A DNA stretch of 64,000 bases from a virus (taxonomy: Duplodnaviria > Heunggongvirae > Uroviricota > Caudoviricetes). The stretch is taken from IMG/VR virus record IMGVR_UViG_3300014204_000115, positions 115,637 to 179,636 of that record; one strand, 5' to 3'. Below the pieces are notes generated by a model. The model searched no databases. It was given only the letters and a program-made list of their open reading frames with translations, and was not told the origin of the DNA. Within the stretch, counting starts at the first letter, position 1, and each line of letters starts with the position of its first letter. Position numbers and translations under genes: made by a program. This document shows positions 5,108-38,283 of this stretch, piece after piece.

Positions 5108-5632
5108 TTGAATCTAGATAATAAAAAGTTATTTTGCGGAATTGATGCATCTTTTAGTGGTACTGGTCTTGTTGTTATTGACAACGAATTTAAAATTGTT
5201 GATCAAAAACTAATTTCAACAAAAAAGAAAGATGATGATTATGATATTGAAAAAAGAATGATTTTTATTGTTGAAGAATTATCCTTATTTCTTACAAAAT
5301 ATTTTATTGATTTAAAATTTACCATGATTGAAGGAATAAGTTATGGTTCTACAGGTGATGGTGCTGCTCAATTGGCCGCGCTAAATTATTTTATTCGAAT
5401 TTTCCTTTTTGAAAACAAAGTTAATTATTCTGAAGTAACACCTAGCAGATTAAAAAAATTTGTATCAGGAAAAGGTCAGTCTAAAAAAGAAATGATGTTA
5501 AAAGAAGTATATAAAAGATGGGGCGAAGATTTTGACGATAATAATTTGTGCGATAGCTACTGTTTAGCAAGATATGCACATGATACTTTTTTTAAGAAAA
5601 ATAATCTTTTAAAATTGAAAGAGGTAAAATAA
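5108..5632 (+). CDS. RuvC-like Holliday junction resolvase
   Basis: TTG start. N-terminal GIDASFSGTGLVV, MIEGISYGS and C-terminal DNNLCDSYCLARYA match the RuvC/RNase H-fold catalytic layout of phage resolvases. Confidence 0.6.
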   Translation: MNLDNKKLFCGIDASFSGTGLVVIDNEFKIVDQKLISTKKKDDDYDIEKRMIFIVEELSLFLTKYFIDLKFTMIEGISYGSTGDGAAQLAALNYFIRIFLFENKVNYSEVTPSRLKKFVSGKGQSKKEMMLKEVYKRWGEDFDDNNLCDSYCLARYAHDTFFKKNNLLKLKEVK

Positions 5633-5784
5633 TGTTTAAAAATTTAACAATAATGAGTATTATAAATCTTTTATTTATCTATGATTGTTTTTTCTGGCCT
5701 ATAGATTTTAGTAGAGATGCAAAATATTGGGGTGATATTTATGATGAGAGATGTAGTGGTAATACATATAGGGATAAAAAATAA
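5632..5784 (+). CDS. small hydrophobic protein (50 aa), tentative
   Basis: ATG overlaps the upstream stop (TAATG), GAGG RBS. The hydrophobic N-terminus is not in the ORF track (<60 aa). Confidence 0.3.
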   Translation: MFKNLTIMSIINLLFIYDCFFWPIDFSRDAKYWGDIYDERCSGNTYRDKK

Positions 5785-6902
5785 TGAGTTTTAAAAATGA
5801 AAAAATAAAAGAAAAATGGAAAAATAAAGAAGATCCCAATAACAAAAAAAGAATATTAATTTTACAAGAAATATCTAGAAATAAAAAAGATACAAAATGG
5901 AAAAAAAGAAATTGTTTATCTAGAAGCGAAAAAACAGAAAACTTTAATAAATTAGTTTTAAATATTAATAAAAATTTTGAAAAGAAAAAAGATTTAGTTT
6001 GTAGAATTTGTAATAAAACATGCAAAGATTTTAAATCATTTTCATCACATATATCACAAACTCATAACATTTTAATTAAAGATTATTATGATTTTTTTAT
6101 AAAAAAAGATGAAGAAGGATTTTGTAAAATTTGTAGTAAATTAACTAGATTTATAAGTTATAAAAATGGATATTCAATTTTTTGTTCATCAATGAAGTGT
6201 GTAAATAATGATCCAAATAGAATATTATCTATAAAAAATTCTGATAAATGGAAAAATATAGATTATAGAAAAAAATTATCAAATAATACAAAAAACCAAT
6301 GGATAAATAATTATGAATATATAAAATTAATGACAACACCAAAAAGTATATTTAGAATCAAACAAGCAAAATCTCAAATTATAAGATATCAAAATAAAGA
6401 AGAAAGAATAAAAACATCAGAATCAATTAAAAGAGCATATATTAATAATCCAAATTTAAGAATTAATGCATCTAATCATACTAAAAAAATGTGGATAGAT
6501 CCTAATAGCAAATTTAATTCAGAAGAATATTTAAAAAAAATTATGTCATATTTTAGAAAGGGATTAAAAACAACACCAGAAAAGAAAATAGAGATGATTT
6601 TAAGTGAATTAATAGGACATAATTTTAAATTTACAGGAAACGGATCTTTTTGGATTAATAGAAAAAATCCAGATTTTACAGATGTTAAAAATAAAAAAGT
6701 AATAGAAGTTTTTGGTGATTATTATCATTCTGAATATTTTAGAAAAAAATTTAATGATTTTTCAACGAATGAAGAACATCAATTAAATAGAGAAAATCAT
6801 TTTAAACAATCTGGTTTTAATTGTTTAATTTTATGGGAGATAGAAATCAAAAATTTAGATTTATGTAAAGATAAAATTATACAATTTATTGGAGAAAAAT
6901 AA
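5784..6902 (+). CDS. putative freestanding homing endonuclease: Lys-rich, C2H2/CxxC zinc fingers, NUMOD3-like repeats, C-terminal Vsr/DUF559-like PD-(D/E)XK nuclease motif
   Basis: Zinc fingers CRICNKTC..H..H and CKICSKL. Repeated K-x-S-E/N-x-x-K units (RIKTSESIKRAY, ASNHTKKMW, KKLSNNTKNQW). C-terminus VIEVFGDYYHSEYF...GFNCLILWEIEI. It sits between core replication genes, and its codon usage is richer in A/K than neighbours. Confidence 0.45.
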   Translation: MSFKNEKIKEKWKNKEDPNNKKRILILQEISRNKKDTKWKKRNCLSRSEKTENFNKLVLNINKNFEKKKDLVCRICNKTCKDFKSFSSHISQTHNILIKDYYDFFIKKDEEGFCKICSKLTRFISYKNGYSIFCSSMKCVNNDPNRILSIKNSDKWKNIDYRKKLSNNTKNQWINNYEYIKLMTTPKSIFRIKQAKSQIIRYQNKEERIKTSESIKRAYINNPNLRINASNHTKKMWIDPNSKFNSEEYLKKIMSYFRKGLKTTPEKKIEMILSELIGHNFKFTGNGSFWINRKNPDFTDVKNKKVIEVFGDYYHSEYFRKKFNDFSTNEEHQLNRENHFKQSGFNCLILWEIEIKNLDLCKDKIIQFIGEK

Positions 6903-6903
6903 A

Positions 6904-7311
6904 ATGGAAAAATTTGTTATTCACCTACATGAAGCCATTAGAAAGGGTACACATTTTGATCTGCGCTTTAGTATTCCTGATTCTAGAAATTGGGCTAGTT
7001 TTGTATTCAATAAATTTCCGCCTTTAGAACCTGGAGAAAGAGTTTACATACCAAGGGCACCGGATCATAATTTGGAAAATGCATTATTTACTGGAGAAAT
7101 AAAATCTGGTTATGGTGCAGGAAGTTTAAAAAAAGTTGATGGTGGTTCTTGTGATGTAATTAAATACACTAATGCTCATATTGTTGTAAATTTTAAAGGA
7201 AAGAAATTACAGGGAATTTATCATTTTATAAATGCAGGAGTGTTTGGTCGAAGAAGACAATATAATAAAAAAGTATATGCATTTTTTAAAGGAAAAATTG
7301 AATCTAATTAA
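6904..7311 (+). CDS. LigD-type 3'-phosphoesterase (PE) domain protein, standalone
   Basis: FVIHLHEAIRKGTHFDLRF...WASF...FTGEIKSGYGAGSL matches the LigD PE-domain signature (Q-x-H-x-A-x-x-x-HYDLRLE ... EG-x-IP-x-YGAG). The ORF track starts at a TTG at 6889; ATG at 6904 after GGAGAAAAATAAA is preferred. Confidence 0.6.
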   Translation: MEKFVIHLHEAIRKGTHFDLRFSIPDSRNWASFVFNKFPPLEPGERVYIPRAPDHNLENALFTGEIKSGYGAGSLKKVDGGSCDVIKYTNAHIVVNFKGKKLQGIYHFINAGVFGRRRQYNKKVYAFFKGKIESN

Positions 7312-7469
7312 AATTATCCCGCCTAGTTAAAAATCAAAAAACATAAAAATCTAGATTGATTCTTGTAAGTTTTACGTCAATCCCAGATAATTTTAGAAAC
7401 TATTTTAATATTAAAGAACAAATTAATAGTAAATCAACTTATTATAAAAATTATAGGAGAGAAATATCA

Positions 7470-10400
7470 ATGGGTAAAAAAGTTATTTTGTCAAAAAATG
7501 CAGAAGAAGTAGCAAAATCTAGATACTTTAATGAGGGCGAGGATTGGGAAACATGTACTAGAAGAGTAGCAGATGCAATTGCTCATGTAGAAAAAGATAA
7601 AGAAATATATGCACAAAAATTTCAAGAAATGATCTATAACATGGACTTTATTCCTGCGGGTAGAATTTTAAGAAATGCTTCTAGAGCAAAAGGTAGTTTA
7701 ATGAATTGCTATGTAATACCAATAGGAGATTCAATAGAAGAAATTGGAAAATTTATTGCTGATAGTCTGACTTTATGGAGTGAAGGAGGTGGAGTTGGGT
7801 GTCTTTTTTCACCTCTAAGACCAAAGAATGAAAAAATTCTTGGCAAAGGTGGCAAGTCATCAGGAATGGTTAGTTTTATTAAAGCTGCAGATGCTGTTTC
7901 TAAAACTATTGAAAGTGGTGGTCAGAGAAGAGCTGCAGCTTTAGCTTGTTGTGACGTATCTCACCCAGAAGTTCTAGATTTTATCAACGCAAAATTAGTT
8001 GATGGAGATATTTCTCATTTTAACATTTCAGTTTTAGTTGATGAAGAATTTATTAAAGCAGTTGAATCTGATAATGATTGGACTTTTAAGTTTAAACAGA
8101 AAGAATATGGTAAAGTAAAAGCTAGAGAAATTTGGAATTTAATTGTTGATAATATGATTAAAAAAGCTGAGCCAGGATTTTTAAATAAAACCAATCTTTA
8201 TAAAAATAATTCATATTATTATGATCCAGTAGTTTCAACAAACCCATGCATAACTGGGGATACTTTAGTTTATGTAGCAGATGGAAGGGGCCATGTTTCT
8301 ATTAAAACATTATCAGAAGAAGATAAGGATATTCCAGTATTTTCTTATAATGAAAGTAAAAAACAAGTTGAAGTAAAAATAATGAGAAGACCTAGAATAA
8401 CTGGGTATAATCAAAAAATATTAAAGATTACTTTAGATGATGGTTCTGTTTTTAGATGCACAGAAAATCATAAGATTTTTATGAAAGATGGATCACTAAA
8501 AAGAGCAGATGGGATTTTACCAGGAGATCGATTAACACATTTAATTTCTTATAATGCTCCACTAGAAGAAATTTTTCCTGATTCAAATTCTAAATCTCAA
8601 GATTATAGATGGATATTGAATAAAGGATATTCAATTTCAGAACATAGATTAATTGCATCATATAAAATTGGAAGAAATTTAAAAACAGGAGAAATTGTTC
8701 ATCATTGTGACAGAAATGGATTAAATAATAGTTTTGAAAATCTTGAAGTAATGATAAAAAAAGATCATGATAAATTACACGGAGATCTAATAAGAGGAGA
8801 TAATAATCCAATGAGGAGATTTCCAGAAAAGAATTATTTTAAATATCATAAATTTTTAGGAATTGAAAACGGAAATAGTATGGGTTTTACAAAAGAAGAG
8901 ATAATGGATAAAGCAATTGAATTTTGTAAATCTCTTACTAGAAAATCACATGTTGGTGAATGGAAGGAATATTGTAGAAAAAATAACTTTCCATATGATA
9001 GTTTTTATATTTTTGGCGATTACGGTCATATTGGCGGATTTCTAGAAGAAGCAGCAAGAAGAGCTAATGTAGTAAATTTTGATAGTTATCATCATGGTGA
9101 ATATAATAAGTATTTGAAATTAAAAGAAGAAACAGATTTAAATATATTCTTTGATAATGGAATTTTTGTGAAGAAGATTTGTGAAGGATGTAAGGAAGAG
9201 TTTATTGTTCCTTGGTCTTATAGAGAAGCCTCTTATCATACAAGAACTTGTTTTAACATCTCAGAACATAAAAAACAAAAAACAAGAGAAGATCGAAAAA
9301 CAAAATATAACGAAAATAAAGAAAATATCTTTAGAGTTTTTAAAGAGCTAGAAACTAAATTTGGAAGAAAACCCTTACTTTATGAGTTAACTGAAGAATG
9401 TAGAAAACAAAAAGTTAGTTTAGTTTTACATGGTTATAAAAAACCATCAGAAGATTATTTTGGATATTATAATGATGTAGTAAATTGGGTTGAAAATAGA
9501 CAAATTAATTATCAAGTAGTTTCTATCGAAGAAGATGGTTTTGAAGATGTGTATAATGGAACTGTTGACGATAATCATAATTTTTATTCAATGGTTAATA
9601 ATAATCAAACAGAATCTGGAAAATCTAAATATAATTATATACTTAGCAAACAATGCGGTGAAGCAATTTTATCAAATTATGAATCATGTGATTTAGGTTC
9701 TTTAGTATTACCAAATTTTATTACAGGAAATGTAAATACGAATTGGAAAAAATTAGGAGAAACTATTAAATTAGCTGTAAGATTTTTAGATAATGTAATT
9801 GATGTAAATAAATATTCTCTAAAAGAAATTGATATTAAAACTCATAATTCAAGAAGAATTGGATTAGGTATTATGGGTTTAGCTGAATATTTATTTTCTA
9901 AAGAATTAAGGTATGGTTCTAAAGAAGCTATAAATGAAATTGAAAAACTAATGAGATTTATTAGAGATAATATTTACCAGACACTAGTTGAATTATCAGT
10001 AGAAAAAGGATCATTCCCAAAATTTGATTCAGTTCAATATGGAAATGCATCATTTGTAAGGAAACTCCCTGCTCAACTTAGAATGGATATTAAAAAATAT
10101 GGTGTAAGATGTGTATCAGGAATGGCTATGGCTCCTAATGGTACAATTTCCCTATTACCTGAAGTAACAAGTGGAATTGAACCCTTAATGTTTAAGGCTT
10201 ATAAAAGAAAAGATAGGGTTGGAGAAAGAATTTATATTCATCCAAAGTATAAAGAGATACTTTTAAGAGGAGATTCTGTCCCGGATTGGTATGTAGATAT
10301 GTCGGATTTAACTCCAAAAGATCATTTTGAAACTCAAGCTATTATTCAAAGATATACTGATGGAGCTGTAAGTAAAACTATTAATCTTCCAGAAGGAACG

Positions 10401-10718
10401 ACATCTGAGCAATTAAATCATTATCTATTAGAATATATTAGAGATTTAAAAGGTGTTACTGTTTATGTTGATAAGTCAAGAGATGGTCAGGTTTATAATA
10501 AATTAAGCGAAGATGAAGTTTTTGATATTATTTCACAACAAACAATAGGAATTAGCAATTCAATGGATGGTGATGATATTGAGTGTAAATGTCAGAAGAA
10601 AGATGATGATGCAGAAGCAGACCAACCAGTAATTTGTGAAATTCCAACTAAATCAGTAAAAGAGGAGAAGAAAAATGTTGTACCTAAAAGAAAATCAAAA
10701 GTGTCCTCACGCAAATAA
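7470..10718 (+). CDS. nrdJ: class II (adenosylcobalamin-dependent) ribonucleotide reductase NrdJ, interrupted by an intein
   Basis: The N-terminus has the NrdJ-like signatures; ATG at 7470 follows GGAGAG (the ORF track begins upstream at a TTG). Extein reads STNP|CGEAIL...CDLGSL...RRIGLGIMGLAEY, giving the NPCGE active-site motif after intein removal. Confidence 0.85.
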   Translation: MGKKVILSKNAEEVAKSRYFNEGEDWETCTRRVADAIAHVEKDKEIYAQKFQEMIYNMDFIPAGRILRNASRAKGSLMNCYVIPIGDSIEEIGKFIADSLTLWSEGGGVGCLFSPLRPKNEKILGKGGKSSGMVSFIKAADAVSKTIESGGQRRAAALACCDVSHPEVLDFINAKLVDGDISHFNISVLVDEEFIKAVESDNDWTFKFKQKEYGKVKAREIWNLIVDNMIKKAEPGFLNKTNLYKNNSYYYDPVVSTNPCITGDTLVYVADGRGHVSIKTLSEEDKDIPVFSYNESKKQVEVKIMRRPRITGYNQKILKITLDDGSVFRCTENHKIFMKDGSLKRADGILPGDRLTHLISYNAPLEEIFPDSNSKSQDYRWILNKGYSISEHRLIASYKIGRNLKTGEIVHHCDRNGLNNSFENLEVMIKKDHDKLHGDLIRGDNNPMRRFPEKNYFKYHKFLGIENGNSMGFTKEEIMDKAIEFCKSLTRKSHVGEWKEYCRKNNFPYDSFYIFGDYGHIGGFLEEAARRANVVNFDSYHHGEYNKYLKLKEETDLNIFFDNGIFVKKICEGCKEEFIVPWSYREASYHTRTCFNISEHKKQKTREDRKTKYNENKENIFRVFKELETKFGRKPLLYELTEECRKQKVSLVLHGYKKPSEDYFGYYNDVVNWVENRQINYQVVSIEEDGFEDVYNGTVDDNHNFYSMVNNNQTESGKSKYNYILSKQCGEAILSNYESCDLGSLVLPNFITGNVNTNWKKLGETIKLAVRFLDNVIDVNKYSLKEIDIKTHNSRRIGLGIMGLAEYLFSKELRYGSKEAINEIEKLMRFIRDNIYQTLVELSVEKGSFPKFDSVQYGNASFVRKLPAQLRMDIKKYGVRCVSGMAMAPNGTISLLPEVTSGIEPLMFKAYKRKDRVGERIYIHPKYKEILLRGDSVPDWYVDMSDLTPKDHFETQAIIQRYTDGAVSKTINLPEGTTSEQLNHYLLEYIRDLKGVTVYVDKSRDGQVYNKLSEDEVFDIISQQTIGISNSMDGDDIECKCQKKDDDAEADQPVICEIPTKSVKEEKKNVVPKRKSKVSSRK
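8247..9653 (+). other. intein (about 469 aa) with HNH endonuclease domain inside nrdJ
   Basis: Starts CITGDTLVY (block A) immediately after NP and contains the HNH motif HHCDRNGLNNSFENLEVMIKKDHDKLH. It has a block-G-like VDDNHNFYSMVNNN. The C-extein starts CGE at 9654. The exact C-terminal splice junction is uncertain (the last intein residue may be Gln). Confidence 0.6.
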
Positions 10719-10910
10719 TTGTCCTTATAACAACACAAATAAATCTAATTTATTTTGCAAAGGTGCAGATGAAAATAGATTAACTCCTTTTACTTGTAAC
10801 TTAGTAAATAATGGAGTTTTTGCAGAAGGAAAAATCAGAAGCGGATTCGATGAAACTGGCAAGATGGGAATTATATTGGAATAGATAAAAAATAGGAGAT
10901 TTATTTAATT

Positions 10911-11378
10911 ATGAATGAATATGATATTTATGAAAATTTAATTAAAGAGTTTGTTGATCAAAGAGAAGCCATTAAATTAATGATAGCTGATCTAGAAAAA
11001 ATTAAAGAAAAAGTTAACCAATTATTTCCTGAACAATTAGATAAAAGATATATTAGATTTTTTGAAGAAAAGGTTAAATCTGTAACTGAGTTGTTTAGAG
11101 TTATATTAGATATGAGAAAAGAAATAATTAAAAATACAAAAGATGAATTTGAAGTAAGAAGAAGATTAAATTCAGCTGAGGATGATACTGATCTAGAAGG
11201 TATTTTTGATATTAAAAAAATAGCTGAAAAAGTTGATAAACTAAGAAAAGAAAAAATTGCATCAGAACAAAAAAGTATAATATTAAGAGCTTCATATAAA
11301 GACATACAAGATGGTACAAAAATGATTGAAGCAGGAGAAGAAATTTCAACTAGTAAAATCAAGATAGAAGGAGAATAA
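10911..11378 (+). CDS. hypothetical coiled-coil protein (155 aa)
   Basis: K/E-rich heptad-like sequence; RBS AATAGGAG upstream. Confidence 0.5.
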   Translation: MNEYDIYENLIKEFVDQREAIKLMIADLEKIKEKVNQLFPEQLDKRYIRFFEEKVKSVTELFRVILDMRKEIIKNTKDEFEVRRRLNSAEDDTDLEGIFDIKKIAEKVDKLRKEKIASEQKSIILRASYKDIQDGTKMIEAGEEISTSKIKIEGE

Positions 11379-11379
11379 G

Positions 11380-12717
11380 ATGACAGATGTTATAATTGAT
11401 AAAAGTGAAGAAATTGTAGAAGACGAGATTTATCAAGAAGAGAATATTTTTTCTGAAGTCAAACCTGAAGATTTAGAACAGAGTTTAAATAATATCAAAA
11501 TTGAATTAACAGAAGAAGATAAAAAGAAATATAATGCAGAAGTACCAGAACCTCCAACAGAAGTAAAAAAGAGAGGCAGAAAACCAAATACGCTTAAAAA
11601 AGATATTCCTACTCCAACAGAAGTAAATTATGAAATGACAGATGAAGAAATTGAATCTGGAATGGATCAGAAGACTAAAGATTTATATATGGAGTTTAAT
11701 AGTTTTCTTGAAGATAAAACAGAAATTACTTCTGATACCGGTATTAAAGATACTATTCCAACAGGAATAGATCTTTTAGATACAATCATGGGAGGGGGAT
11801 TTGCAATAGGCACTATGGGTGTTGCAACTGGAAATCCTGGTTGTGGAAAAAGTATGTTAGCAATTCAGACTATGGGTGCTGCACAGAGAAAATATAATGG
11901 TAATATTATTGCTGCTATGTTAGATTCAGAAGAAGCAACTACTACTATTAGAATGTCAAATCTTGGAGTAAAAAACCCTAAGATTAAACCTTATAATGAT
12001 ATTACAGTTGAAAAGGTTTTTAAATTTTTAGAAGGCATGTGTCTATACAAAGATATGAAAAAAATTATGGATACCCCATCAATAGTAGTTTGGGATTCTG
12101 TTGCAAATACATTAAGTCAGAGAGAAAGAGAAGCAGAAGATATTAATTCAGTAATTGGATATAAGGGAAGATTATTATCTTTATTAATTCCAAAATATGT
12201 ATCTAAATTAGCTATATACAATATTTGCTTAATTGCAATTAATCAGTTAAGAGATGTAATTTCTATTGGCAACTTCGCCCCAGCAAAAGAGTTAAAATTT
12301 ATGAGTCAGGGAAAAACTATGCCCGGTGGTAATAGTTTTAAATTTAATGCATTTCATCTATTAGAAATGAAAGCTAGGGAAACTGCTACTAGAGATAAGT
12401 TTGGGTTTGATGGATATTTTGCAGAAGTTGTTTGTGTAAAAAATAAATTATTTGCTCCTAATATTAAAATTAGTATAGCTGGAAATTTCGTTACTGGGTT
12501 TAATAACTTCTATACAAATTATAGATTCTTGACTGAAAATAAAAGAATGATAACTGGGGCTTGGAATTGGCTTGAAAATCTACCAACAGTTAAAACCCGC
12601 ACAAAAGACGCAGAAGAATTATATAAGACAAATACTTTATTTAAAGAAGCATTTGATAAATCTGTATCAGAAACATTACAAACAGAGATAATTGAAAAGT
12701 ACAATCCTTCTTTATAA
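11380..12717 (+). CDS. RecA-fold ATPase, UvsX/RecA-like recombinase candidate
   Basis: GIDLLDTIMGGGFAIGTMGVATGNPGCGKSMLAIQ parallels RecA G..LD.ALG.GG.P.GRIVEI.GPESSGKTTLAL. Acidic N-terminal extension. A DnaB-type helicase core cannot be fully excluded. Confidence 0.5.
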   Translation: MTDVIIDKSEEIVEDEIYQEENIFSEVKPEDLEQSLNNIKIELTEEDKKKYNAEVPEPPTEVKKRGRKPNTLKKDIPTPTEVNYEMTDEEIESGMDQKTKDLYMEFNSFLEDKTEITSDTGIKDTIPTGIDLLDTIMGGGFAIGTMGVATGNPGCGKSMLAIQTMGAAQRKYNGNIIAAMLDSEEATTTIRMSNLGVKNPKIKPYNDITVEKVFKFLEGMCLYKDMKKIMDTPSIVVWDSVANTLSQREREAEDINSVIGYKGRLLSLLIPKYVSKLAIYNICLIAINQLRDVISIGNFAPAKELKFMSQGKTMPGGNSFKFNAFHLLEMKARETATRDKFGFDGYFAEVVCVKNKLFAPNIKISIAGNFVTGFNNFYTNYRFLTENKRMITGAWNWLENLPTVKTRTKDAEELYKTNTLFKEAFDKSVSETLQTEIIEKYNPSL

Positions 12718-12724
12718 TTTAAAA

Positions 12725-13849
12725 ATGAAAATTAAATTATGTGATTATGGTTGTGGAAAAGAAGCAAGATTTCTTTTAAAGTTTAAAAATTCAGAAAAAT
12801 GGTGCTGTTCAGAAAAATATTCAGCATGTAAATCAAATATTAAAACATGGAATAAAGGTTTGACAAAAGAAACAGATGAACGAGTTAAAAAATATTCAAT
12901 TAATAAAATTGGATTATCTTCATGGAACAAGGGTTTGACAAAAGAAACAGATGAACGAGTTAAAAAAATTAGTTTATCAAATATTGGAAAGAAAATTTCA
13001 TCTAATCATAGATTAAAAATTAGTAAATCTTTAAAGGGAAAAAGTAAAACAGAAGATCATATAAAAAAATTATCTGAATCATTAAAAGGAAAAATTGGAT
13101 GGAATAATGGTTTAACAAAAGAAACTAGTAATTCTTTAATGATAGTTAGTAAAAAACTAAAAGGAAGAATAATAAAACAAGAAACTAAAGAAAAATTAAG
13201 AAAAATAAATCTTGGTAAAAAGTTATCAGAAGAAACTATAATAAAAATTTCTAAAAAAAATAAAGGTAGAAAAAGAACACCTGAACAAATTAAAAATCAT
13301 AGAAATTCTATTAAAGGCAACAAAAATCATAAAATGAATCATTATATAGAAACTTATCCAGATTTTATAAAATTAGAATTATTAGAGGAAGATTCTGAAA
13401 CAAAAGATTTAATAGTAATATGTAGTATTTGTAATTTAAAATTTACTCAAAATAATAGAGAAAAAATTTCTTATAGAGCACAAATGATTATATTAAAAAA
13501 AATGAATCAAGGAATGTTTTATTGCTCAAAAGAATGCAAAGAAAAATTTATTAATAAAAATAAAAATGATTATGAAATATATTCTAGAAAAGTTTGGAAG
13601 AATACTTATCAATCAGTAAAAGAACAAGGTTCTAATATCAAAAATATTGAATTAAGAGGCAGAAAATATAAATATCAGTTAGATCATAAGTATTCTATAA
13701 TAGAGGGTTTTAAAAATAATATAGATCCAAAAATTATTGGTCATTGGAAAAATTTAGAAATAATTTCAGATATTAAAAATACAAGAAAATTAGGAAAATG
13801 TTCTATAACAATACAAGAATTAATACAAGAAATAAATAATATTATATAA
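12725..13849 (+). CDS. freestanding HNH homing endonuclease with tandem NUMOD3 DNA-binding repeats
   Basis: N-terminal CDYGCGKEARF..CCSEKYSAC zinc knuckle. There are at least 6 repeats of W/L-N-K-G-L-T-K-E-T / K-K-L-S-E-E-T-I-I-K-I-S-K-K-N-K-G (NUMOD3 consensus). C-terminal QLDHKYSIIEGF...HWKNLEII is an HNH core. The ATG at 12725 is preferred over the TTG at 12692 in the ORF track. Confidence 0.6.
   Translation: MKIKLCDYGCGKEARFLLKFKNSEKWCCSEKYSACKSNIKTWNKGLTKETDERVKKYSINKIGLSSWNKGLTKETDERVKKISLSNIGKKISSNHRLKISKSLKGKSKTEDHIKKLSESLKGKIGWNNGLTKETSNSLMIVSKKLKGRIIKQETKEKLRKINLGKKLSEETIIKISKKNKGRKRTPEQIKNHRNSIKGNKNHKMNHYIETYPDFIKLELLEEDSETKDLIVICSICNLKFTQNNREKISYRAQMIILKKMNQGMFYCSKECKEKFINKNKNDYEIYSRKVWKNTYQSVKEQGSNIKNIELRGRKYKYQLDHKYSIIEGFKNNIDPKIIGHWKNLEIISDIKNTRKLGKCSITIQELIQEINNII
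12846..12968 (+). repeat. near-perfect direct repeat (about 47 nt unit, period 75 nt) inside the HNH/NUMOD3 gene
   Basis: catggaa(t/c)aa(a/g)ggtttgacaaaagaaacagatgaacgagttaaaaaa occurs at 12846-12892 and 12921-12967. It encodes the duplicated WNKGLTKETDERVKK unit. Confidence 0.8.
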
Positions 13850-24670: not shown

Positions 24671-27600
24671 ATGTCCCTAAAATTTCTAGATTTAAATAAT
24701 TTTACAAGAAATTTAAAACCAGTAACAAGTACACAGACTCATACAAGAACAGATGAGTTTCATCCTCAAGGATTATTTTCCGAAATGATTTTTGGAGTAG
24801 AAGGTAGTTTAGATAGAAAGAAAACATTTTCATATATTGATTTAAATACATTTGTAATTCACCCTACTGCATATAGAATTCTTATCAGATTGGATAGAAA
24901 AATAGAAAAGATGTTTTCTACTGAAAAATCATTTAGATTGACAGAAAATGGTACATTAATAGAAGATGATAACGGAGTAACAGGAATTTTTGAATTTATT
25001 AAACTATTTCCAAAACTAATATTAAGAGGTGAATCTGAAGATAGAGATAAATTTATTAAAGTATTAAAAGATTCATATCAAGATCAAATATTATTTATAA
25101 ATAAAATTCCAATTATGCCTCCAGAACAAAGACCAATTTTTAAAGATAGCAGCGGAAGATACACACAAGATAAATTTAATGATTTTTACTTAACTATTTT
25201 AAGAAGATCAATACAACTTAAAACATTTGGGGCTAAAGGTACAATGTATGATCTATTAAATTGGGGATTACAAAGATCAGTAAATGATTTAGATGAATAC
25301 ACTAGAACAAAAATTGGTAAAAAATTTGGTTTAATTAGATCTCAGCTTCTAGGAAAAAGAACTGATTTCTCTGGAAGAGCTGTTATTACATCAGGTCCAG
25401 ATATTCCTGCAGATAAAATTGGAATACCTTTTAGATTAGCTATAACTTTATTTGAACCGTTTATAATTTATACACTTTTATATTCTGGAAAAATAAATAA
25501 AGATACTTTAGAAAAAGAAATAAAGAATTTTACAAAAACAGATTTATCCACAAATAGTATTGCAATTGTTTTAAAAAGTTTAAAATCTGGAGATGTTGTA
25601 CCTAAAAATTTATATGATATTTTCTTTAAGGCTGCAGTTTTGGCGTCTGAAAATAGAGTTGTTTTAGCAAAAAGAGATCCTGTTTTACATGCTGAATCAG
25701 TTCGAGCATTTTATCCTATCATAGTTCCTGGTAATACTATACAATTATCAGCTCTAGTTACAGGAGGATTTAACGCTGACTTTGATGGGGATACAATGGC
25801 AGTATTTCATCCTTTAACTATTGAATCACAAGATGAAGCAAAAAAAAGAATGATGATGGCTAGATCCTCTTCTTCATTTACAAGTATTACTTTTGAATTA
25901 AGTAAAGAAATGAGTGTTGGATTATATTTAATTACAAAAGATATTAAGGAATTTAAACCTCCTATTAGTGTTTCTAAAGAAGATTTAGAAAAAGCAATAG
26001 ATCCTTATACTCCAGTTATTTATAAAAAACAAACAACAACAATGGGAAAAGCAATTTTTAATAATTGTTTTCCTTCAGATTTTAGATTTATAAATGATTT
26101 GGTAACTAAAAAAATTGCTAATAAATTAATTTTTGAAGTTATTGATAAATATGGAGATGAAATTGGAAGACAAGTTGCATCTAATTTAAAAAATGTTGGT
26201 TTTAGATTCGCTAGTTTATTGGCACCTTCTTTAAATTTAAACGAAATTACAATTCCTCCTGAGATTTATGAATTAAAGAAAAATATGGATAAAGCTACAA
26301 CAGAAGAAGCAATTGAAATAATGGATAAAATGCGAAAAATAATGATTGAACATTTAAAAGATACAGGTTTATATAATTTAGTTGAATCAGGAAGTACTAA
26401 AGGATGGGATCAACCAATTCAAATTTTAGTTGCAAAAGGAATCATGGTAGATCCGACTGGAAAAATTCTTCCTCCTATTAAAGGTTCATTATCTGATGGT
26501 TTAACCACAACTGAATATTTTAATGCTGCTGGAGGAAGTAGAGCTGGAATCATTGATAGAGTTATCAATACTGCAGATACAGGATATACAGCTAGAAAAT
26601 TAGCTTATCTTTTAAACTCAGTAGAATTAGATTGGGTGTTAAAAGATTGTGGTACACAATTAACCTTAGATATAAAATTAGATCCAGATATTATTAGTAG
26701 ATTAAAAGGAAGATATATAGTAAAAAGAGGAAAATTAGAACTATTTGAACATTCTGGTTCAAAGTCTGGAGATTTAATTCATCTGAGAAGTCCAATTTTT
26801 TGTAAATCTTTAAAAATTTGTCATACTTGTTATGGAAAACTTTTAGAAATTCATAAAAGTCCTTATGTTGGAATTATTGCAGCATCAAATATTGGAGAAA
26901 GAAATACACAGCTTATTATGAGATCTTTCCATTCAACTGCAATTAAGATTATAACAAGAGATATATTAAAAGATATTTTTGATAATGATCCATTAGTTAA
27001 ATCCGATCAATTAAAAATAAAATTAAAACAGATGGAAAATAATTTGTATTGCACACAGGATTGTTCAATGACTATAGATTTAGATAGTTATGAATTAGGT
27101 GATGATATTACTATAAATGAAGAAGAAAATATAGTTGAAGCAAATGGTTTAATTTCTAGAATTGAATTTTCAGATTTATCATTTGATATAGTTCTTGATT
27201 ATCCAGTAATTATTAAATATGATAAAATAATTAAATCTAAAGAATTTATTAAAGTATCATTTAGAAAAGACGATGAAATTATTGAAGCTCCATTACAAAG
27301 ACAAGATTTAAAAGAAATTGTTTTATATGTCGAAAGATTAATTTCAGGTAAAGAAAAATTTAAAAGCATAGATCATTTATTTTTAAAATTTTACAAAATT
27401 TATAGCGACATTTCAAGTATGGATTTAGTTCATATGGAAGTATTAATTAGTCAGATTTTAAGAGATAAAAATAATCCAGTTTTCCCATCAAGAGTTGGAA
27501 AAGATCCAATGCATCCTGTATTAAGAAATATTAAAAAGAATGTTTTTAATAACGGAGGTTTGCTTCAAGGATTAGCTTTTGAAAATACATCAGCTGCTAT

Positions 27601-27700
27601 TAATGCAGGTTTAATAGCAACTACTGAATTAGAACCATCTATTTTAGAAAGATTATTAACAGGAACTTTAGTTGAGAGAAAAGATAAGGATAAGGATTAA
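24671..27700 (+). CDS. rpoC: DNA-directed RNA polymerase beta'-like subunit (1009 aa)
   Basis: Catalytic motif GGFNADFDGDTMAV. RAVITSGPDIPADKIGIPFRLAITLFEPF matches the beta' rudder/lid region. CHTCYGKL...GIIAASNIGERNTQLIMRSFH matches the beta' trigger-loop region. No N-terminal zinc-ribbon cysteines. Confidence 0.85.
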   Translation: MSLKFLDLNNFTRNLKPVTSTQTHTRTDEFHPQGLFSEMIFGVEGSLDRKKTFSYIDLNTFVIHPTAYRILIRLDRKIEKMFSTEKSFRLTENGTLIEDDNGVTGIFEFIKLFPKLILRGESEDRDKFIKVLKDSYQDQILFINKIPIMPPEQRPIFKDSSGRYTQDKFNDFYLTILRRSIQLKTFGAKGTMYDLLNWGLQRSVNDLDEYTRTKIGKKFGLIRSQLLGKRTDFSGRAVITSGPDIPADKIGIPFRLAITLFEPFIIYTLLYSGKINKDTLEKEIKNFTKTDLSTNSIAIVLKSLKSGDVVPKNLYDIFFKAAVLASENRVVLAKRDPVLHAESVRAFYPIIVPGNTIQLSALVTGGFNADFDGDTMAVFHPLTIESQDEAKKRMMMARSSSSFTSITFELSKEMSVGLYLITKDIKEFKPPISVSKEDLEKAIDPYTPVIYKKQTTTMGKAIFNNCFPSDFRFINDLVTKKIANKLIFEVIDKYGDEIGRQVASNLKNVGFRFASLLAPSLNLNEITIPPEIYELKKNMDKATTEEAIEIMDKMRKIMIEHLKDTGLYNLVESGSTKGWDQPIQILVAKGIMVDPTGKILPPIKGSLSDGLTTTEYFNAAGGSRAGIIDRVINTADTGYTARKLAYLLNSVELDWVLKDCGTQLTLDIKLDPDIISRLKGRYIVKRGKLELFEHSGSKSGDLIHLRSPIFCKSLKICHTCYGKLLEIHKSPYVGIIAASNIGERNTQLIMRSFHSTAIKIITRDILKDIFDNDPLVKSDQLKIKLKQMENNLYCTQDCSMTIDLDSYELGDDITINEEENIVEANGLISRIEFSDLSFDIVLDYPVIIKYDKIIKSKEFIKVSFRKDDEIIEAPLQRQDLKEIVLYVERLISGKEKFKSIDHLFLKFYKIYSDISSMDLVHMEVLISQILRDKNNPVFPSRVGKDPMHPVLRNIKKNVFNNGGLLQGLAFENTSAAINAGLIATTELEPSILERLLTGTLVERKDKDKD

Positions 27701-27702
27701 TT

Positions 27703-30700
27703 ATGATACAATTTAAATCACTAAGACAATATACTCATGTTGTTAATGGTATCAGATTTCCAAATAAACCCGGTCAAAATTTTGTTGTTACTTATTTTTC
27801 AGAAAATTCTAGTTTACTTGAAGATTATTCATTTTTAAATTTAAAATTAATAGATCTAAAAATTAATATAGTTCCATTTACAACAATTCCTAGAACAAGA
27901 TTAACACCTACTCTATTAAAATCATTTAAAAAACTAGGTTTAAATTCTTATCAATTAACTAATCAAGTACCAAGTGGAAGAAATGTAATATATGATTTAT
28001 CTCAATTTTTAAATGCAATTGATTATACATATAATCCATCAAATTATAGACAAAGATTAAATATGTTTATAAAAAATATTACTAATAGATCTTTTTCCGA
28101 ATTTAATAATTTTGAGAAAGTACTATTATATTCTATTAATTTAACAAAAGATAAGTTAAATAATTTTATTGACAGAAAATTTTTTCCAATAGTACAACAA
28201 TTAAAGGATGATTCATTTAGTTTTGATCATTTAATTTTATGTTTAATCACGCCATCAGGACCAAGATATAGATTATTAGTTAAAAATAGATCCTTTAAGT
28301 TTGAAAGAATAGTAACAATATTAAAAACAATTAAATTAGGTAATACTACAGAAGAAGTTAATGACATAGATACAGAAGAAGAAAATAATGCAGAAAAACT
28401 TGCAGATGAAGTAGTAAATAATATTCAAAATAATATTCTACCTAATAATAAAGATAAAGTAAAAGATGCAATTAAAAATTATCTTTCTAAAGATAATATT
28501 ACAAAAGAAAAAGTTATATCTAAAGAAGTATCTCCAAAAAGTATGAAAAAAATTGGAGTAGCATCTATTTTATATAAAGTAACTGGAGATTTAGATAAAT
28601 CTAAAAAAATTACAAATAATATTTCTGATAAGAATTTTAATAATGCTCTAAAAACTATAGATAAAAGATATTCTGATCAAATGTTACAAACTCAAAAACC
28701 AATTAATACATCAACTGATAATTTTGTTAAATCTTATGATACACCAAAAGCTGTAATTAAATCTCCATATCATTTATTTCAAAAAAGGTTGATAGACTTT
28801 GATATAAATCTCCAGAAAGATTTAGCTAATTCATTTAAAGTTCTTGAGACTAAAGAACTTCCTTTAAAAGTTGGTGAAATACAAATTGTAAATAGAAAAC
28901 AAAAAAATGGAGAAATTGAAAAATCTGATACTAATATAATTAAAACAGTATTGACAGATAAGGATGGTAATAATCATAACATTCAAATTGAAATTCCTAG
29001 AATTGATCCAAAGACTGGAACATTTAGAGTTAATGGTCAGAAAAAATGTTTAATCAATCAGATTGTATTATGTCCAATAACTTTTCCTAAAAAATTTGAA
29101 TCAAGATTTGAAAGTTCATATTCTATTTTTAGAATTAGAAGTAAAAGAACAAGAAATACAAAATATTTAGAAATTTTTATTGCTAACTCTTGGTTACCAT
29201 TATCTATATTATTATTTTATAGTTTTGGATTTGAAGAAACTCTTTCACAATATGGTATAAAATATAGAATAAGTTCAGATAAACCAAATAAAACTGACAC
29301 CTTTTATTCTAAAATTGATGGATCTAATTTTATTTATTTTGATGGTGTAAATAATGAATTAAAGGCAGAACTAATTAATTCATTTATAAATACAAAAGTT
29401 GACACATTAAAAATTAAAAAACCATTTGCTACTCAAGAATATTTCAATGATATAATTATTAGATTAACAGGAAGAGTAAATTCAACATTTTTAATTCTAT
29501 CAAATTTAGAAAATATTGTTGATCCTGTAGCAAAACAAGTTTTAATTAATATGCATCAACCATCTGTTTTAAAAGATATTATTTATTATATGTCTTTTAA
29601 AGTAATAACTGGATTTGTTCAAGATAGAAATGATATTTTAAACCAAAGAATTAGAGAATCAGAAGTATTAGTTCATTTAATACAAAAACAAATTTTAGCA
29701 GCTTATACGATTTATAAACAACAAATTTTAGCTGGTAATAAAAATGCAAAATTTGAAATTAATCAATCAAAATTATTAAGCGAATTTATTAGATCAGAAA
29801 TTGTTGCAAATATGGAGTATGCAAACCCAATAGAAGAAATGGCAGTTATGACAAGAATTTCACCTGTTGGAAAAAGTATCGGTGGTATTCCTGATAAAAG
29901 AGCAATTCAAAATGAAGCAAGAAATATACACCCATCTTATTTTGGAAATATTGATCCATTAGATACACCTGAAGGAGAAATGATTGGTATTTCACAACAA
30001 TTAGCTATCGGAGCTTCTATTAGTTCAGCAAGAGGTTTATTCTCAAAGAAACCATTTTTGGATAGTGAGAAATCTGGAATTTTATCAACATCATCCAATA
30101 TGATTCCATTTATAGAAAATAATGATGGTGCAAGAATTATTATGGCAACAAATCAAGCTAAACAGACGCTCCCATTAAAAAATCCAGAACCACCAGTTGT
30201 TAGATCTGGTTATGAATCATTATTAACAAATATATTATCTAATAACTTTATTAAAAAATCTCCATGCAATGGGAAAGTTTTAAAAATTACAGATGAGTCA
30301 ATTTTTATAATGTGTAGAGATAAAAGCATCAGAGAAATTTCTATAATTCCTGTTCATTTAAAATCAGGAATTGGAAAAGATACATTGAGTATTTTTAAAG
30401 TAATAGTAATACCAGGACAAATAGTTTTAGAAAATCAAATTATTGCAGAAGGAAGTTCTATTTCCAATGGAACAATTTCTCTAGGAAGAACTCTTTGTAC
30501 TGCAGTTATGCCATATAGAGGATATAATTTTGAAGATGGTATTGTAATCAACGAAAATTTAATAAATCAAGATAAACTAACATCTATTCATGGAATTATA
30601 GATGAAGTTTTAATTTCTGAAAATGATAGAGTTTTAGAAATTGCAAAAATTGGAACCTATCTTGAAAAAGGAAAACCTATTTTAAGAAAAACTATAGGTG

Positions 30701-37059: not shown

Positions 37060-38283
37060 GTGGCTAATGCAACAAATGAAGAAAAGAAATATTATCAAAG
37101 ATTAGGTGTAATTCCTATTTCGATTGATAATATAAAAAGAATTATTAAAAATAATATTAAGAATACAATCAAGTGTTGGAATAATGGAAAAGATATTTCA
37201 AGACAAACATTTAAAATTACAGGAAATGCAGGAATTGGAAAAACAGATGTCAGTACCCAATTATCAAAAGAATTAACAGAAGAATTGGGTATTAAATTTG
37301 ACTGTATCATAATTAAAGCTCCTGTATTATCTAGAGATGATTTATTATGTCCATTCCCAATAATTGATAATGGACACTCAAGATTTAAAATGTTATATTC
37401 AGATTTTATTCCATTAGATCCAGATTCTTATGGTATATTTATTATTGATGAATTAAGTAGAGGAGATACTTCATTTCAACAATTATGTTGGCAGATACAA
37501 AATGAACATAAAGTTCATACATATCCATTACCAAAAGGATGGTTTGTTATTTGTTTAGATAATCCTGATGATCAAGAATATAGTTTAAATATGGTTGAAG
37601 ATGCAGCTGGATTGAGAAGAGTTCTTCATTTATATTCAGAAGTTAATGCTAAAGCATTTTTAAATTATGCTATTTCTGCAAATTTTCATCCTTTGGTTGT
37701 AGAATATATTCAAATTCATCCAGATTATCTTTATGATTTTGATTCTCAGAAAATTGGAATGATTTATGCTAATCCAGGATCATGGGAAAGAGTAAGTAAT
37801 ATTTTATGGGGTTATGAAGAAACTATTCTTGAAAATTTAGATGATTTAGCTACTTTATTTTCTGGTCTTTTAAATCAAAATATGACAAGAATGTTTATAA
37901 GTTTTATTCGAGATAGAAAAGATATTAGTCCATCTGATGTTTTTTATGATTATAAAAAAGTAAGAAAAGATATTTTAGAATTTTCTAGAAAATCTGAAAA
38001 TATAAAACTTGGTCAGTTAATGGAATCTTTTATTACTTTTCTAACTACATCAAAACCAAAATATAATGATGATAACTTAACTAATATGTCAGATTTCTTG
38101 ACAGATATACCTTCTGATATTGGAGTATTATTTTTATCTAAACTATCAGCATTTGATGTAAAATCTGAAGAATTTAAGTATGTTACAGGTATTCATGTAA
38201 TACTAAATTCAAAGTTTCCTGAATACAGAACAAAATTTTATGAAGCAATGGTTAATAAAAATCGTAAGGTAAATGGACAATAA
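37060..38283 (+). CDS. MoxR-like AAA+ ATPase
   Basis: Walker A GNAGIGKT, Walker B GIFIIDELSRGD, and a downstream CLDNPDD...AAGLRRV block (MoxR/AAA_5-like NP and arginine motifs). Confidence 0.6.
   Translation: MANATNEEKKYYQRLGVIPISIDNIKRIIKNNIKNTIKCWNNGKDISRQTFKITGNAGIGKTDVSTQLSKELTEELGIKFDCIIIKAPVLSRDDLLCPFPIIDNGHSRFKMLYSDFIPLDPDSYGIFIIDELSRGDTSFQQLCWQIQNEHKVHTYPLPKGWFVICLDNPDDQEYSLNMVEDAAGLRRVLHLYSEVNAKAFLNYAISANFHPLVVEYIQIHPDYLYDFDSQKIGMIYANPGSWERVSNILWGYEETILENLDDLATLFSGLLNQNMTRMFISFIRDRKDISPSDVFYDYKKVRKDILEFSRKSENIKLGQLMESFITFLTTSKPKYNDDNLTNMSDFLTDIPSDIGVLFLSKLSAFDVKSEEFKYVTGIHVILNSKFPEYRTKFYEAMVNKNRKVNGQ

What the first reader, a model, noticed from the sequence alone, without database searches (positions are those of the whole stretch)
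7470..10718. Class II RNR (NrdJ) with an HNH-type intein inserted exactly at the NP|CGE active-site cysteine; unusual C-terminal splice junction
The extein reads ...VVSTNP then CITGDTLVY (intein block A). After about 469 aa the extein resumes CGEAILSNYESCDLGSL, regenerating the NPCGE radical-site motif. The intein carries an HNH nuclease motif (HHCDRNGLNN...DHDKLH) rather than LAGLIDADG. Its apparent last residues (..KYNYILSKQ) are not the canonical His-Asn, although a block-G-like DDNHNFYSMVNNN sits about 25 aa upstream. That suggests either a Gln-terminated intein or a short C-terminal insertion. An AdoCbl-dependent RNR in a phage also implies reliance on host B12.
Basis: partly seen in the sequence, partly recalled or inferred. 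Interest (0 to 1): 0.55.

Follow-up and report, generated by a model that had tools for sequence, protein, structure and literature searches.

The report
Gln-ended HNH intein in phage NrdJ
A jumbo-phage B12-dependent ribonucleotide reductase gene is interrupted, exactly in front of its catalytic cysteine, by a 469-residue self-splicing intein that carries an HNH homing nuclease and ends in glutamine instead of the usual asparagine; this is a real but ordinary member of a large, already known kind of mobile element.

Summary
ORF 7470..10718 encodes a 1082-aa precursor. Removing residues C260..Q728 (nt 8247..9653, 469 aa) gives a 613-aa protein that passes the NrdJ equivalog model and restores STNP|CGE.

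Two related jumbo-phage contigs carry the empty site with identical flanking residues, so the insert is an exact 1407-nt indel.

The "block-G-like" DDNHNF is really block F. The extra ~14 residues form a confidently modelled long F-G beta-hairpin that the whole family shares.

In 107 family junctions from 50%-identity representatives, 66 end in Gln and 41 in Asn. None ends in anything else, and none has a penultimate His.

An orthologous intein (87% identical, also ending CAA Gln) gives dN/dS 0.11, equal to the exteins. The Gln-ended intein is therefore under selection and very probably splices.

The insertion site is the commonest known RNR intein site, and both Gln-terminal and HNH inteins are documented.

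Verdict: new member of a known kind, modest interest.

The parts
7455..7459 (+). Shine-Dalgarno-like AGGAG, 10 nt upstream of the ATG at 7470
   Evidence: sequence read
7470..10718 (+). nrdJ precursor gene (1082 codons plus stop) containing one intein
7470..8246 (+). N-extein, residues 1-259, ending ...VVSTNP
8247..9653 (+). Intein, 469 aa (C260..Q728). Exact 1407-nt indel relative to the empty-site alleles
   Evidence: L002 and L004 empty; L003 filled with the same length
8247..8285 (+). Block A. Cys1 (C260) is the first nucleophile. CITGDTLVYVADG; C1 is invariant in 36/36 family members
   Evidence: (TIGR01445)
8460..8471 (+). Block B TENH (intein T72, H75). H75 is invariant in 36/36
8619..8819 (+). 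HNH endonuclease domain (HH-CDRNGLNN-...-DHDKLH)
   Evidence: Pfam HNH_3 at residues 392-433, E 5e-7. Nine PHROG families matched the intein at E <= 0.001; eight are HNH endonuclease families, best E 9e-11
9180..9251 (+). CxxC...H/C...C zinc-ribbon-like element inside the helical DNA-binding region (intein about 190-420)
9549..9584 (+). Block F VYNGTVDDNHNF. The position that is Asp in most inteins (F:4) is Asn here
9579..9650 (+). Elongated F-G beta-hairpin (NFYSMVNNNQ - TESGK - SKYNYILSK), about 14 residues longer than in the Ssp DnaB intein
   Evidence: AF2 strands 450-459 and 465-473, pLDDT 93-95. Family-wide length
9651..9653 (+). Terminal Gln728 (CAA), preceded by Lys727 instead of His
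   Evidence: The orthologue L003 also has CAA
9654..9656 (+). Cys729 (+1 nucleophile), which is also the NPCGE cysteine that the literature calls the class I/II RNR thiyl-radical site
9654..10715 (+). C-extein, residues 729-1082, including the C-terminal Cys-x-Cys at 10581-10592

Best explanation
This is a genuine class-1 intein that is very probably active. It has a bipartite HINT splicing domain that embraces an HNH homing endonuclease plus helical and zinc-ribbon DNA-binding modules. It sits in the nrdJ gene of a jumbo phage, directly N-terminal to the NPCGE cysteine.

Splicing mechanism (inferred from standard intein chemistry):
1. The 1082-aa precursor folds.
2. Cys260 makes the N-S acyl shift.
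3. The N-extein is transferred to Cys729.
4. Gln728 cyclises in place of the usual Asn and releases the intein.
5. An S-N shift joins Pro259 to Cys729. This recreates the STNPCGE loop of a 613-aa adenosylcobalamin-dependent reductase.

Homing (also inferred): the HNH nuclease is expected to cut intein-less nrdJ alleles of co-infecting relatives, so that the intein is copied in by recombinational repair.

The Lys-Gln end, the Asn at F:4 and the long F-G hairpin are traits of the whole intein family. They are not defects of this copy.
For: Junctions:
- The empty-site alleles L002 and L004 read SYYYDPVVSTNP|CGEAILSNYESC, identical to the window's flanks.
- 96 of 99 intein-less close homologues have a contiguous NPCGE.

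Host gene:
- NrdJ_Z scores 473.5 bits against a cutoff of 399.95.
- The alignment to 1xjk runs through the junction without a gap.

HINT fold:
- AF2 mean pLDDT is 86.
- Foldseek probability is 1.0 to the DnaB mini-inteins.

HNH domain.

Family census:
- 50 junctions from the first two searches: 29 Asn, 21 Gln.
- 107 junctions among 50%-identity representatives: 66 Gln, 41 Asn, and no other residue. There is never a penultimate His. F:4 is Asn in 105 of 107.
- About 7 Asn/Gln switches on a rough neighbour-joining tree.

Selection (window vs the orthologue L003, both ending in Gln):
- Intein dN/dS is 0.114 overall: HINT-N 0.08, HNH 0.16, middle 0.11, HINT-C 0.17.
- Extein dN/dS is 0.10-0.12, at dS 0.65-0.94.

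Mobility: presence is patchy. 21 of the 120 closest NrdJ homologues carry an insert at this site, including LAGLIDADG-type inteins.

Literature:
- This site is the most frequent RNR intein site (PMC2677866).
- Gln-terminal inteins splice (PMC4031507).
Against: No experiment was done; splicing and nuclease activity are inferred.
- Three positions that assist catalysis in most inteins are non-canonical: F:4 Asn, G:6 Lys, G:7 Gln.
- Gln-terminal PolII inteins are reported to splice slowly.
- The dN/dS values use the Nei-Gojobori method in a 25% GC genome with dS near saturation, so they are approximate.
- The purifying selection on the nuclease part could reflect a function other than homing.
- The neighbour-joining tree is unsupported by bootstrap, so the number of Asn/Gln switches is rough.
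Confidence: 0.88

Rival explanations
1. The intein really ends about 15 residues earlier, at ...MVNNN or ...NNNQ, with Thr714 as the +1 residue. A 15-aa insertion (TESGKSKYNYILSKQ) would then remain in the mature RNR.
For: The Pfam Intein_splicing match stops at residue 707, profile position 148 of 155. The profile end would therefore fall near N712-T714. An Asn run followed by Thr looks superficially like a canonical junction.
Against: - Empty-site alleles and 96 of 99 intein-less homologues have NPCGE with nothing in between.
- In 157 family junctions, the segment after HN[FY] varies in length (16-31 residues) and in sequence, but always ends [NQ]|C[GAS]E.
- AF2 models the segment as part of the HINT beta-hairpin at pLDDT 93-95.
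- An insertion in the finger loop that carries the catalytic Cys would be expected to damage the enzyme.
Confidence: 0.02
2. The insert is a decayed, non-splicing intein, with the Asn-to-Gln and His-to-Lys changes as inactivating mutations. The nrdJ gene would then be a pseudogene or produce an inactive protein.
For: Non-canonical residues at G:6, G:7 and F:4. Some Gln-terminal inteins splice slowly.
Against: - Both exteins and all parts of the intein show dN/dS of about 0.1 against an orthologue that shares the Gln.
- The same three residue states characterise the whole family, across more than 100 diverged representatives. The terminal residue is restricted strictly to Asn or Gln.
- The frame stays open over 469 codons at a stop frequency of about 0.10 per codon.
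Confidence: 0.05
3. The intein splices, but its nuclease no longer homes. It persists only because precise loss is rare at an essential site, or the HNH and DNA-binding part has been co-opted for another role.
For: The window's intein and the L003 intein have diverged about as much as their exteins (87% vs 84-87% identity). That fits vertical descent rather than recent invasion. GC3 of the intein (0.113) matches that of the exteins (0.12-0.14).
Against: - The HNH and DNA-binding regions are under purifying selection as strong as that on the splicing domain.
- HNH motif residues are intact.
- Presence is patchy among NrdJ proteins that are 82-86% identical.
- Family variants with and without nuclease modules (146-506 aa) fit the usual cycle of homing and decay.
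Confidence: 0.15
4. The interruption is an intron (group I or II) with an in-frame ORF, removed at the RNA level rather than at the protein level.
For: Phage RNR genes often carry group I introns (PMC3653736).
Against: - No Rfam family reaches its gathering score anywhere in the window.
- The insert is in frame with both exteins and begins and ends with intein blocks A and G.
- The HINT fold is formed from its two ends.
Confidence: 0.01

Closest known systems
Contiguous RNR inteins at the site directly N-terminal to the thiyl-radical cysteine (the InBase 'RIR1' alleles of class I and II reductases)
   Same: Same insertion point. Dassa et al. [quoted passage not shown] The catalytic Cys likewise serves as the +1 nucleophile.
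   Different: This copy belongs to a clade with an HNH nuclease, Asn at F:4, no penultimate His, an Asn-or-Gln end and a long F-G hairpin. LAGLIDADG inteins with short canonical G blocks occupy the same site in other close homologues (P0081, P0121, P0148).
Chilo iridescent virus RNR (CIV RIR1) intein
   Same: [quoted passage not shown] It is reported to splice better with Gln than with Asn (review PMC4031507).
   Different: The host is a eukaryotic iridovirus RNR. I could not retrieve its sequence, so shared ancestry with this family is untested. Whether its insertion site is the same rests only on my memory and was not checked.
Pyrococcus abyssi and Methanoculleus marisnigri PolII inteins
   Same: Class-1 inteins ending in Gln.
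   Different: The host protein is different (DNA polymerase II) and they are archaeal mini-inteins. They are reported as slow splicers that improve on Gln-to-Asn substitution. The sequence relationship is distant (Foldseek E 1e-4).
NrdJ-1 split intein (PDB 8ubs)
   Different: It is naturally split and has no embedded nuclease. It is inserted one residue further C-terminal. Sequence identity is only 23%.
HNH-type intein homing endonucleases
   Same: An HNH nuclease embedded between the HINT lobes. HNH is one of the two recognised intein nuclease types (PMC2677866).
   Different: It is a Pfam HNH_3-type domain followed by about 230 residues of helical and zinc-ribbon modules. These have no sequence match in the PDB.

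Membership tests
Intein (class 1, HINT superfamily) | In-frame insertion at a conserved site of a host protein, with intein-less alleles in relatives | tested here: met
   Exact 1407-nt indel against L002 and L004. 99 of the 120 closest homologues lack it.
Intein (class 1, HINT superfamily) | [quoted passage not shown] | tested here: met
Intein (class 1, HINT superfamily) | Cys or Ser at intein position 1, and Cys, Ser or Thr at +1 | tested here: met
   C260 and C729. C1 is invariant in 36/36 members. The +1..+3 residues are CGE in 106 of 107.
Intein (class 1, HINT superfamily) | Block B Thr-x-x-His | tested here: met
   TENH at intein 72-75 aligns with TANH of Ssp DnaB. The His is invariant.
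Intein (class 1, HINT superfamily) | C-terminal Asn (G:7) | tested here: not met
   Gln728, codon CAA. This is a documented variant and the majority state in this family: 66 Gln against 41 Asn.
Intein (class 1, HINT superfamily) | Penultimate His (G:6) | tested here: not met
   Lys727. It is never His in 157 family junctions. Functional inteins without this His are documented.
Intein (class 1, HINT superfamily) | Block F Asp at F:4 | tested here: not met
   Asn (VYNGTV) aligns with the Asp of VFDLTV in Ssp DnaB. It is Asn in 105 of 107 members. A conserved Asp lies four residues later (D441, 33/36).
Intein (class 1, HINT superfamily) | Actual protein splicing | not testable with these tools
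   Supported only indirectly, by purifying selection on exteins and intein.
HNH homing endonuclease | HNH (beta-beta-alpha-metal) motif with conserved His, Asn and His | tested here: met
   PF13392 HNH_3 scores 29.7 against 24.8. Eight PHROG HNH endonuclease families match, best E 9e-11. The motif HH..N..NN..N....H...H is intact and 91% identical in the orthologue.
HNH homing endonuclease | Site-specific cleavage of the intein-less allele | not testable with these tools
   Inferred from patchy distribution and selection on the domain.
Class II (adenosylcobalamin-dependent) ribonucleotide reductase NrdJ | Match to the NrdJ equivalog model above its curated cutoff | tested here: met
   TIGR02504 scores 473.5 against 399.95 on the spliced extein. 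The class I model TIGR02506 falls below its cutoff, 244 against 341.
Class II (adenosylcobalamin-dependent) ribonucleotide reductase NrdJ | NPCGE active-site loop restored after splicing, colinear with a solved NrdJ | tested here: met
   STNPCGEAILSNYESCDLGS aligns with STNPCGEIGLSDYEACNLGS of T. maritima NrdJ 1xjk without a gap.
Class II (adenosylcobalamin-dependent) ribonucleotide reductase NrdJ | No radical-generating small subunit needed; cobalamin binding and activity | tested here: inconclusive
   No Ribonuc_red_sm or NrdD family among the 57 window ORFs scanned. However, only 64 kb of a larger genome is visible, and cofactor use is not testable here.
LAGLIDADG intein endonuclease | LAGLIDADG motifs or domain | tested here: not met
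   No Pfam LAGLIDADG hit in the intein. PF14528 is seen only in other inteins at the same site (P0081, P0121, P0148).

The most novel reading that the evidence does not exclude
This intein represents a large clade that may not have been formally described. It has at least 298 clusters at 50% identity, found in jumbo phages, a 735-kb megaphage and candidate-phyla bacteria.

The clade's active site appears built to cyclise either Asn or Gln:
- Gln is the majority terminal residue.
- No other residue is tolerated at that position.
- There have been repeated Asn/Gln switches, although the change needs two nucleotide substitutions.
- F:4 is Asn.
- Lys or Arg replaces the penultimate His.
- The F-G hairpin is elongated by about 14 residues.

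If the hairpin and the basic G:6 residue turn out to be what makes Gln cyclisation efficient, the clade would give a natural system for dissecting glutarimide-type C-terminal cleavage. It might also offer new splicing tools or a slow, condition-dependent switch for phage dNTP synthesis.
Probability: 0.25. Interest if true: 0.5.

Novelty: new member of a known kind. Interest (0 to 1): 0.3.

Why it matters
For annotation, it fixes the true product: a 613-aa NrdJ plus a free 469-aa HNH nuclease. It also shows that database relatives labelled only "HNH endonuclease" or "hypothetical protein" are intein-interrupted reductases.

For intein biology, the useful result is the family-level one. Gln at the C-terminus is treated in reviews as a rare variant known from a handful of tested inteins. 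Here it is the commoner of two strictly alternating states in a family with hundreds of diverged members, and in this lineage it is under purifying selection. That makes the clade a reasonable source of natural Asn/Gln pairs for mechanistic work.

It does not change what is known about RNRs, inteins or phages in kind.

Tried and rejected
- Megablast of 7000..11000 against 50,697 phage records found no match, so no close cultured or deposited relative is available. tblastn gave only partial matches of 35% identity or less.
- An Rfam scan of the whole window gave no hits, so an intron reading is rejected.
- The alternative C-junction at N712/Q713|T714 is rejected on the empty-site and family evidence.
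- A LAGLIDADG nuclease is rejected.
- I tried to read Amitai et al. 2004 (PMID 14593103) to test kinship with the CIV RIR1 intein, but the paper is not held. Kinship remains untested.
- I checked for nrdB, nrdD or cobalamin genes among 57 window ORFs and found none. This is uninformative beyond the 64 kb.
- The model coordinates cannot be read with these tools, so distances between Cys1, Gln469 and Cys+1 could not be measured.
Full report
**1. What is in the sequence**

The ORF is 7470..10718 on the + strand, 1082 codons plus a stop. AGGAG lies 10 nt upstream of the ATG, and homologues start at the same M-x-K-K residues.

Pfam finds four domains:
- Ribonuc_red_lgN at residues 8-74.
- Ribonuc_red_lgC stretched over 79-999.
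- Intein_splicing at 269-707, 42.5 bits against a cutoff of 35.8.
- HNH_3 at 392-433, 29.7 bits against a cutoff of 24.8.

The N-extein ends ...VVSTNP at residue 259. The insert runs from C260 (CITGDTLVY) to Q728 (..KYNYILSKQ, codon CAA at 9651-9653). The extein resumes at C729 with GEAILSNYESCDLGSL. An open frame of that length at this base composition has a chance probability of about 2e-22. No Rfam family, including group I and II introns, reaches threshold anywhere in the window.

**2. The host gene is a class II RNR of a jumbo phage**

With the insert removed, the 613-aa protein scores 473.5 bits on the NrdJ_Z equivalog TIGR02504 (cutoff 399.95). It stays below the cutoff of the class I model. 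Its best solved relative is Thermotoga maritima B12-dependent RNR (E 3e-76). The alignment runs through STNPCGE...SNYESCDLGS without a gap.

The window has 58 ORFs of 110 aa or more on the + strand and two on the - strand, and no tRNAs. It encodes:
- RNA polymerase beta- and beta'-like subunits, T4-type topoisomerase II and SbcC;
- a RuvC-like resolvase, and a RecA-like protein and a LigD-type phosphoesterase;
- a baseplate spike domain.

The same LigD_N - nrdJ - small ORFs - recA-like order occurs on metagenomic contigs of up to 268 kb. "Phage" is therefore supported.

No nrdB, nrdD or cobalamin gene was seen among the 57 window ORFs scanned, but only 64 kb is visible.

**3. The junctions are fixed by empty sites**

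The 120 closest NrdJ homologues are 63-86% identical. Of these, 99 have no insert and 21 have one at this site.

Two syntenic contigs, L002 and L004, carry intein-less genes. They read SYYYDPVVSTNP|CGEAILSNYESC, residue for residue the window's flanks. L003 carries an insert of exactly the same 1407 nt. Of the 99 intein-less homologues, 96 have a contiguous NPCGE.

This excludes the alternative junction at ..MVNNN(Q)|T, which the truncated Pfam match might otherwise suggest.

**4. Anatomy of the intein**

- **Blocks A and B.** Block A (C1) and block B (TENH, intein 72-75) align with the Ssp DnaB mini-intein.
- **Block F.** The segment QVVSIEEDGFEDVYNGTVDDNHNFYS also aligns with it, against SIVSITETGVEEVFDLTVPGPHNFVA.
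- **F-G hairpin.** After HNF the DnaB intein needs 9 residues to reach its end. This intein needs 23.
- **Structure model.** An AlphaFold2 model built on 35 aligned sequences has mean pLDDT 86. It places the extra residues in a long two-stranded hairpin, NFYSMVNNNQ / turn TESGK / SKYNYILSK, at pLDDT 93-95. Gln follows immediately after the second strand.

**5. The "unusual" junction is the family norm**

A search with the intein found 47 relatives. An exhaustive scan of 1.84 billion 50%-identity representatives found 298 at E <= 1e-30 and 1313 at E <= 1e-10.

| Census | Junctions | End in Gln | End in Asn | Other | Penultimate residue | HN[FY]-to-end distance |
|---|---|---|---|---|---|---|
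| First two searches | 50 | 21 | 29 | 0 | K 17, R 14, L 7, A 4, M 3, P 2, Q, S, C; never His | 23 residues in 32 of 50 |
| 140 new representatives | 107 | 66 | 41 | 0 | never His | 23 most often (60 of 107) |

In the second census, F:4 is Asn in 105 of 107 and the +1..+3 residues are CGE in 106 of 107.

Family members range from 146-aa mini-inteins to 506-aa forms. One sits in the RNR of the published 735-kb megaphage LR756501 and ends ..ICVKN|CGE.

A rough neighbour-joining tree of 36 complete members needs about 7 Asn/Gln changes. The window groups with P0053 (Gln), next to P0048 and P0051 (Asn) and P0097 (Gln). AAY to CAR needs two substitutions, through Lys or His, yet neither intermediate was seen. 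This argues that a cyclisable amide is required and that both Asn and Gln work.

**6. Is this copy functional?**

Against the orthologous intein in L003 (469 aa, 87.4% identical, also CAA Gln), Nei-Gojobori dN/dS values are as follows:

| Region | dN/dS |
|---|---|
| Intein, whole | 0.114 |
| HINT-N | 0.08 |
| HNH | 0.16 |
| Middle region | 0.11 |
| HINT-C | 0.17 |
| Exteins | 0.10-0.12 |

These hold at dS 0.65-0.94. The catalytic Cys is only brought next to Asn-Pro by splicing, so selection on the exteins implies splicing. Selection on the nuclease part implies it still does something.

Against the more distant L001, whose intein ends in Asn and lacks about 75 residues, the C-extein gives 0.12 and the intein 0.37.

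GC3 of the intein (0.113) equals that of the exteins (0.12-0.14). The element has therefore been resident for a long time or circulates among similarly AT-rich phages.

Caveats: the method is simple, the genome is 25% GC and dS is high.

**7. Mechanism**

Shown here: the precise junctions, the HINT fold, the nucleophiles, the HNH motif, the patchy distribution, and selection.

Inferred from established intein chemistry (review PMC4031507):
1. N-S shift at Cys260.
2. Trans-thioesterification to Cys729.
3. Cyclisation of Gln728.
4. S-N shift that joins Pro259 to Cys729.

Inferred from the homing paradigm: the HNH nuclease cuts intein-less alleles in co-infections, and repair copies the intein in.

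**8. Comparison with what is known**

- Dassa et al. [quoted passage not shown] They also state that intein nucleases are of the LAGLIDADG or HNH type (PMC2677866).
- Mills et al. 2014 list Gln-terminal inteins that splice (the Pab and Mma PolII inteins and the CIV RNR intein) and functional inteins without the penultimate His.
- RNR genes of phages are known to be rich in introns, inteins and homing nucleases (PMC3653736). Huge phages are too (PMC12880540).

Each element of the finding is therefore a known kind. The new points are:
- this particular allele;
- the observation that its clade combines F:4 Asn, no G:6 His, an Asn-or-Gln end and a long F-G hairpin;
- the observation that Gln is the commoner end in the clade.

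I could not test whether the CIV RIR1 intein belongs to the same clade.

**9. Verdict**

First, DDNHNF is block F. Second, the extra residues are a family-wide hairpin extension rather than an insertion after a hidden end. This is a new member of a known kind, with interest about 0.3.

Noticed in passing
window 12692..13849 (+): A 385-aa ORF immediately after the RecA-like gene (11380..12717) matches a PHROG HNH endonuclease family (phrog_21964, E 3e-13). No gene of this kind follows recA in L001-L004. It is probably a free-standing homing endonuclease.
   Followed up: partly
window 5784..6902 (+): A 372-aa ORF between the RuvC-like gene (5108..5632) and the LigD_N phosphoesterase gene (6889..7311). 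It has only weak zinc-finger Pfam hits and no PHROG or NCBIfam match. This slot holds different small ORFs in L002-L004. A mobile nuclease is possible but not shown.
   Followed up: partly
window 38283..39632 (+): A 449-aa protein matches PHROG 1314 'HNH endonuclease' at E 6e-53. It is another nuclease gene in the replication module.
   Followed up: no
window 24671..31815 (+): Adjacent 1009-aa and 1370-aa proteins match phage RNA polymerase beta and beta' subunit PHROGs. This multisubunit RNAP is typical of jumbo phages.
   Followed up: no
window, among 41 ORFs scanned together (coordinates not resolved by the call): Single hits to PTPS (QueD-like), Radical_SAM, ThiF, PTH2, Band_7, DNMK and SUKH families. 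PTPS together with radical SAM hints at a 7-deazaguanine DNA-modification pathway.
   Followed up: no
L003 1025..2892: The UDP-glucose/GDP-mannose dehydrogenase gene is called as 116 aa plus 523 aa here, but as a single 283-284 aa gene in L002 and L004. It may carry another insertion.
   Followed up: no
L005 2086..5568 (LR756501.1, 735-kb uncultured phage): The unannotated RNR ORF of this published megaphage contains an intein of the same family at SATNP|C..., ending ..ICVKN|CGEQIL.
   Followed up: partly
P0081, P0121, P0148 (close NrdJ homologues): The same NP|CGE site is occupied by unrelated LAGLIDADG-type inteins with short canonical G blocks (..ANGILVSN|C). One starts with Ser. At least two intein lineages therefore compete for this site in related phages.
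   Followed up: partly
L001 64..2025: The closest Asn-ended relative has Asn instead of Thr at block B position 7 (KANDVH) and lacks about 75 residues of the DNA-binding region. Its intein dN/dS against the window is higher, 0.37.
   Followed up: partly
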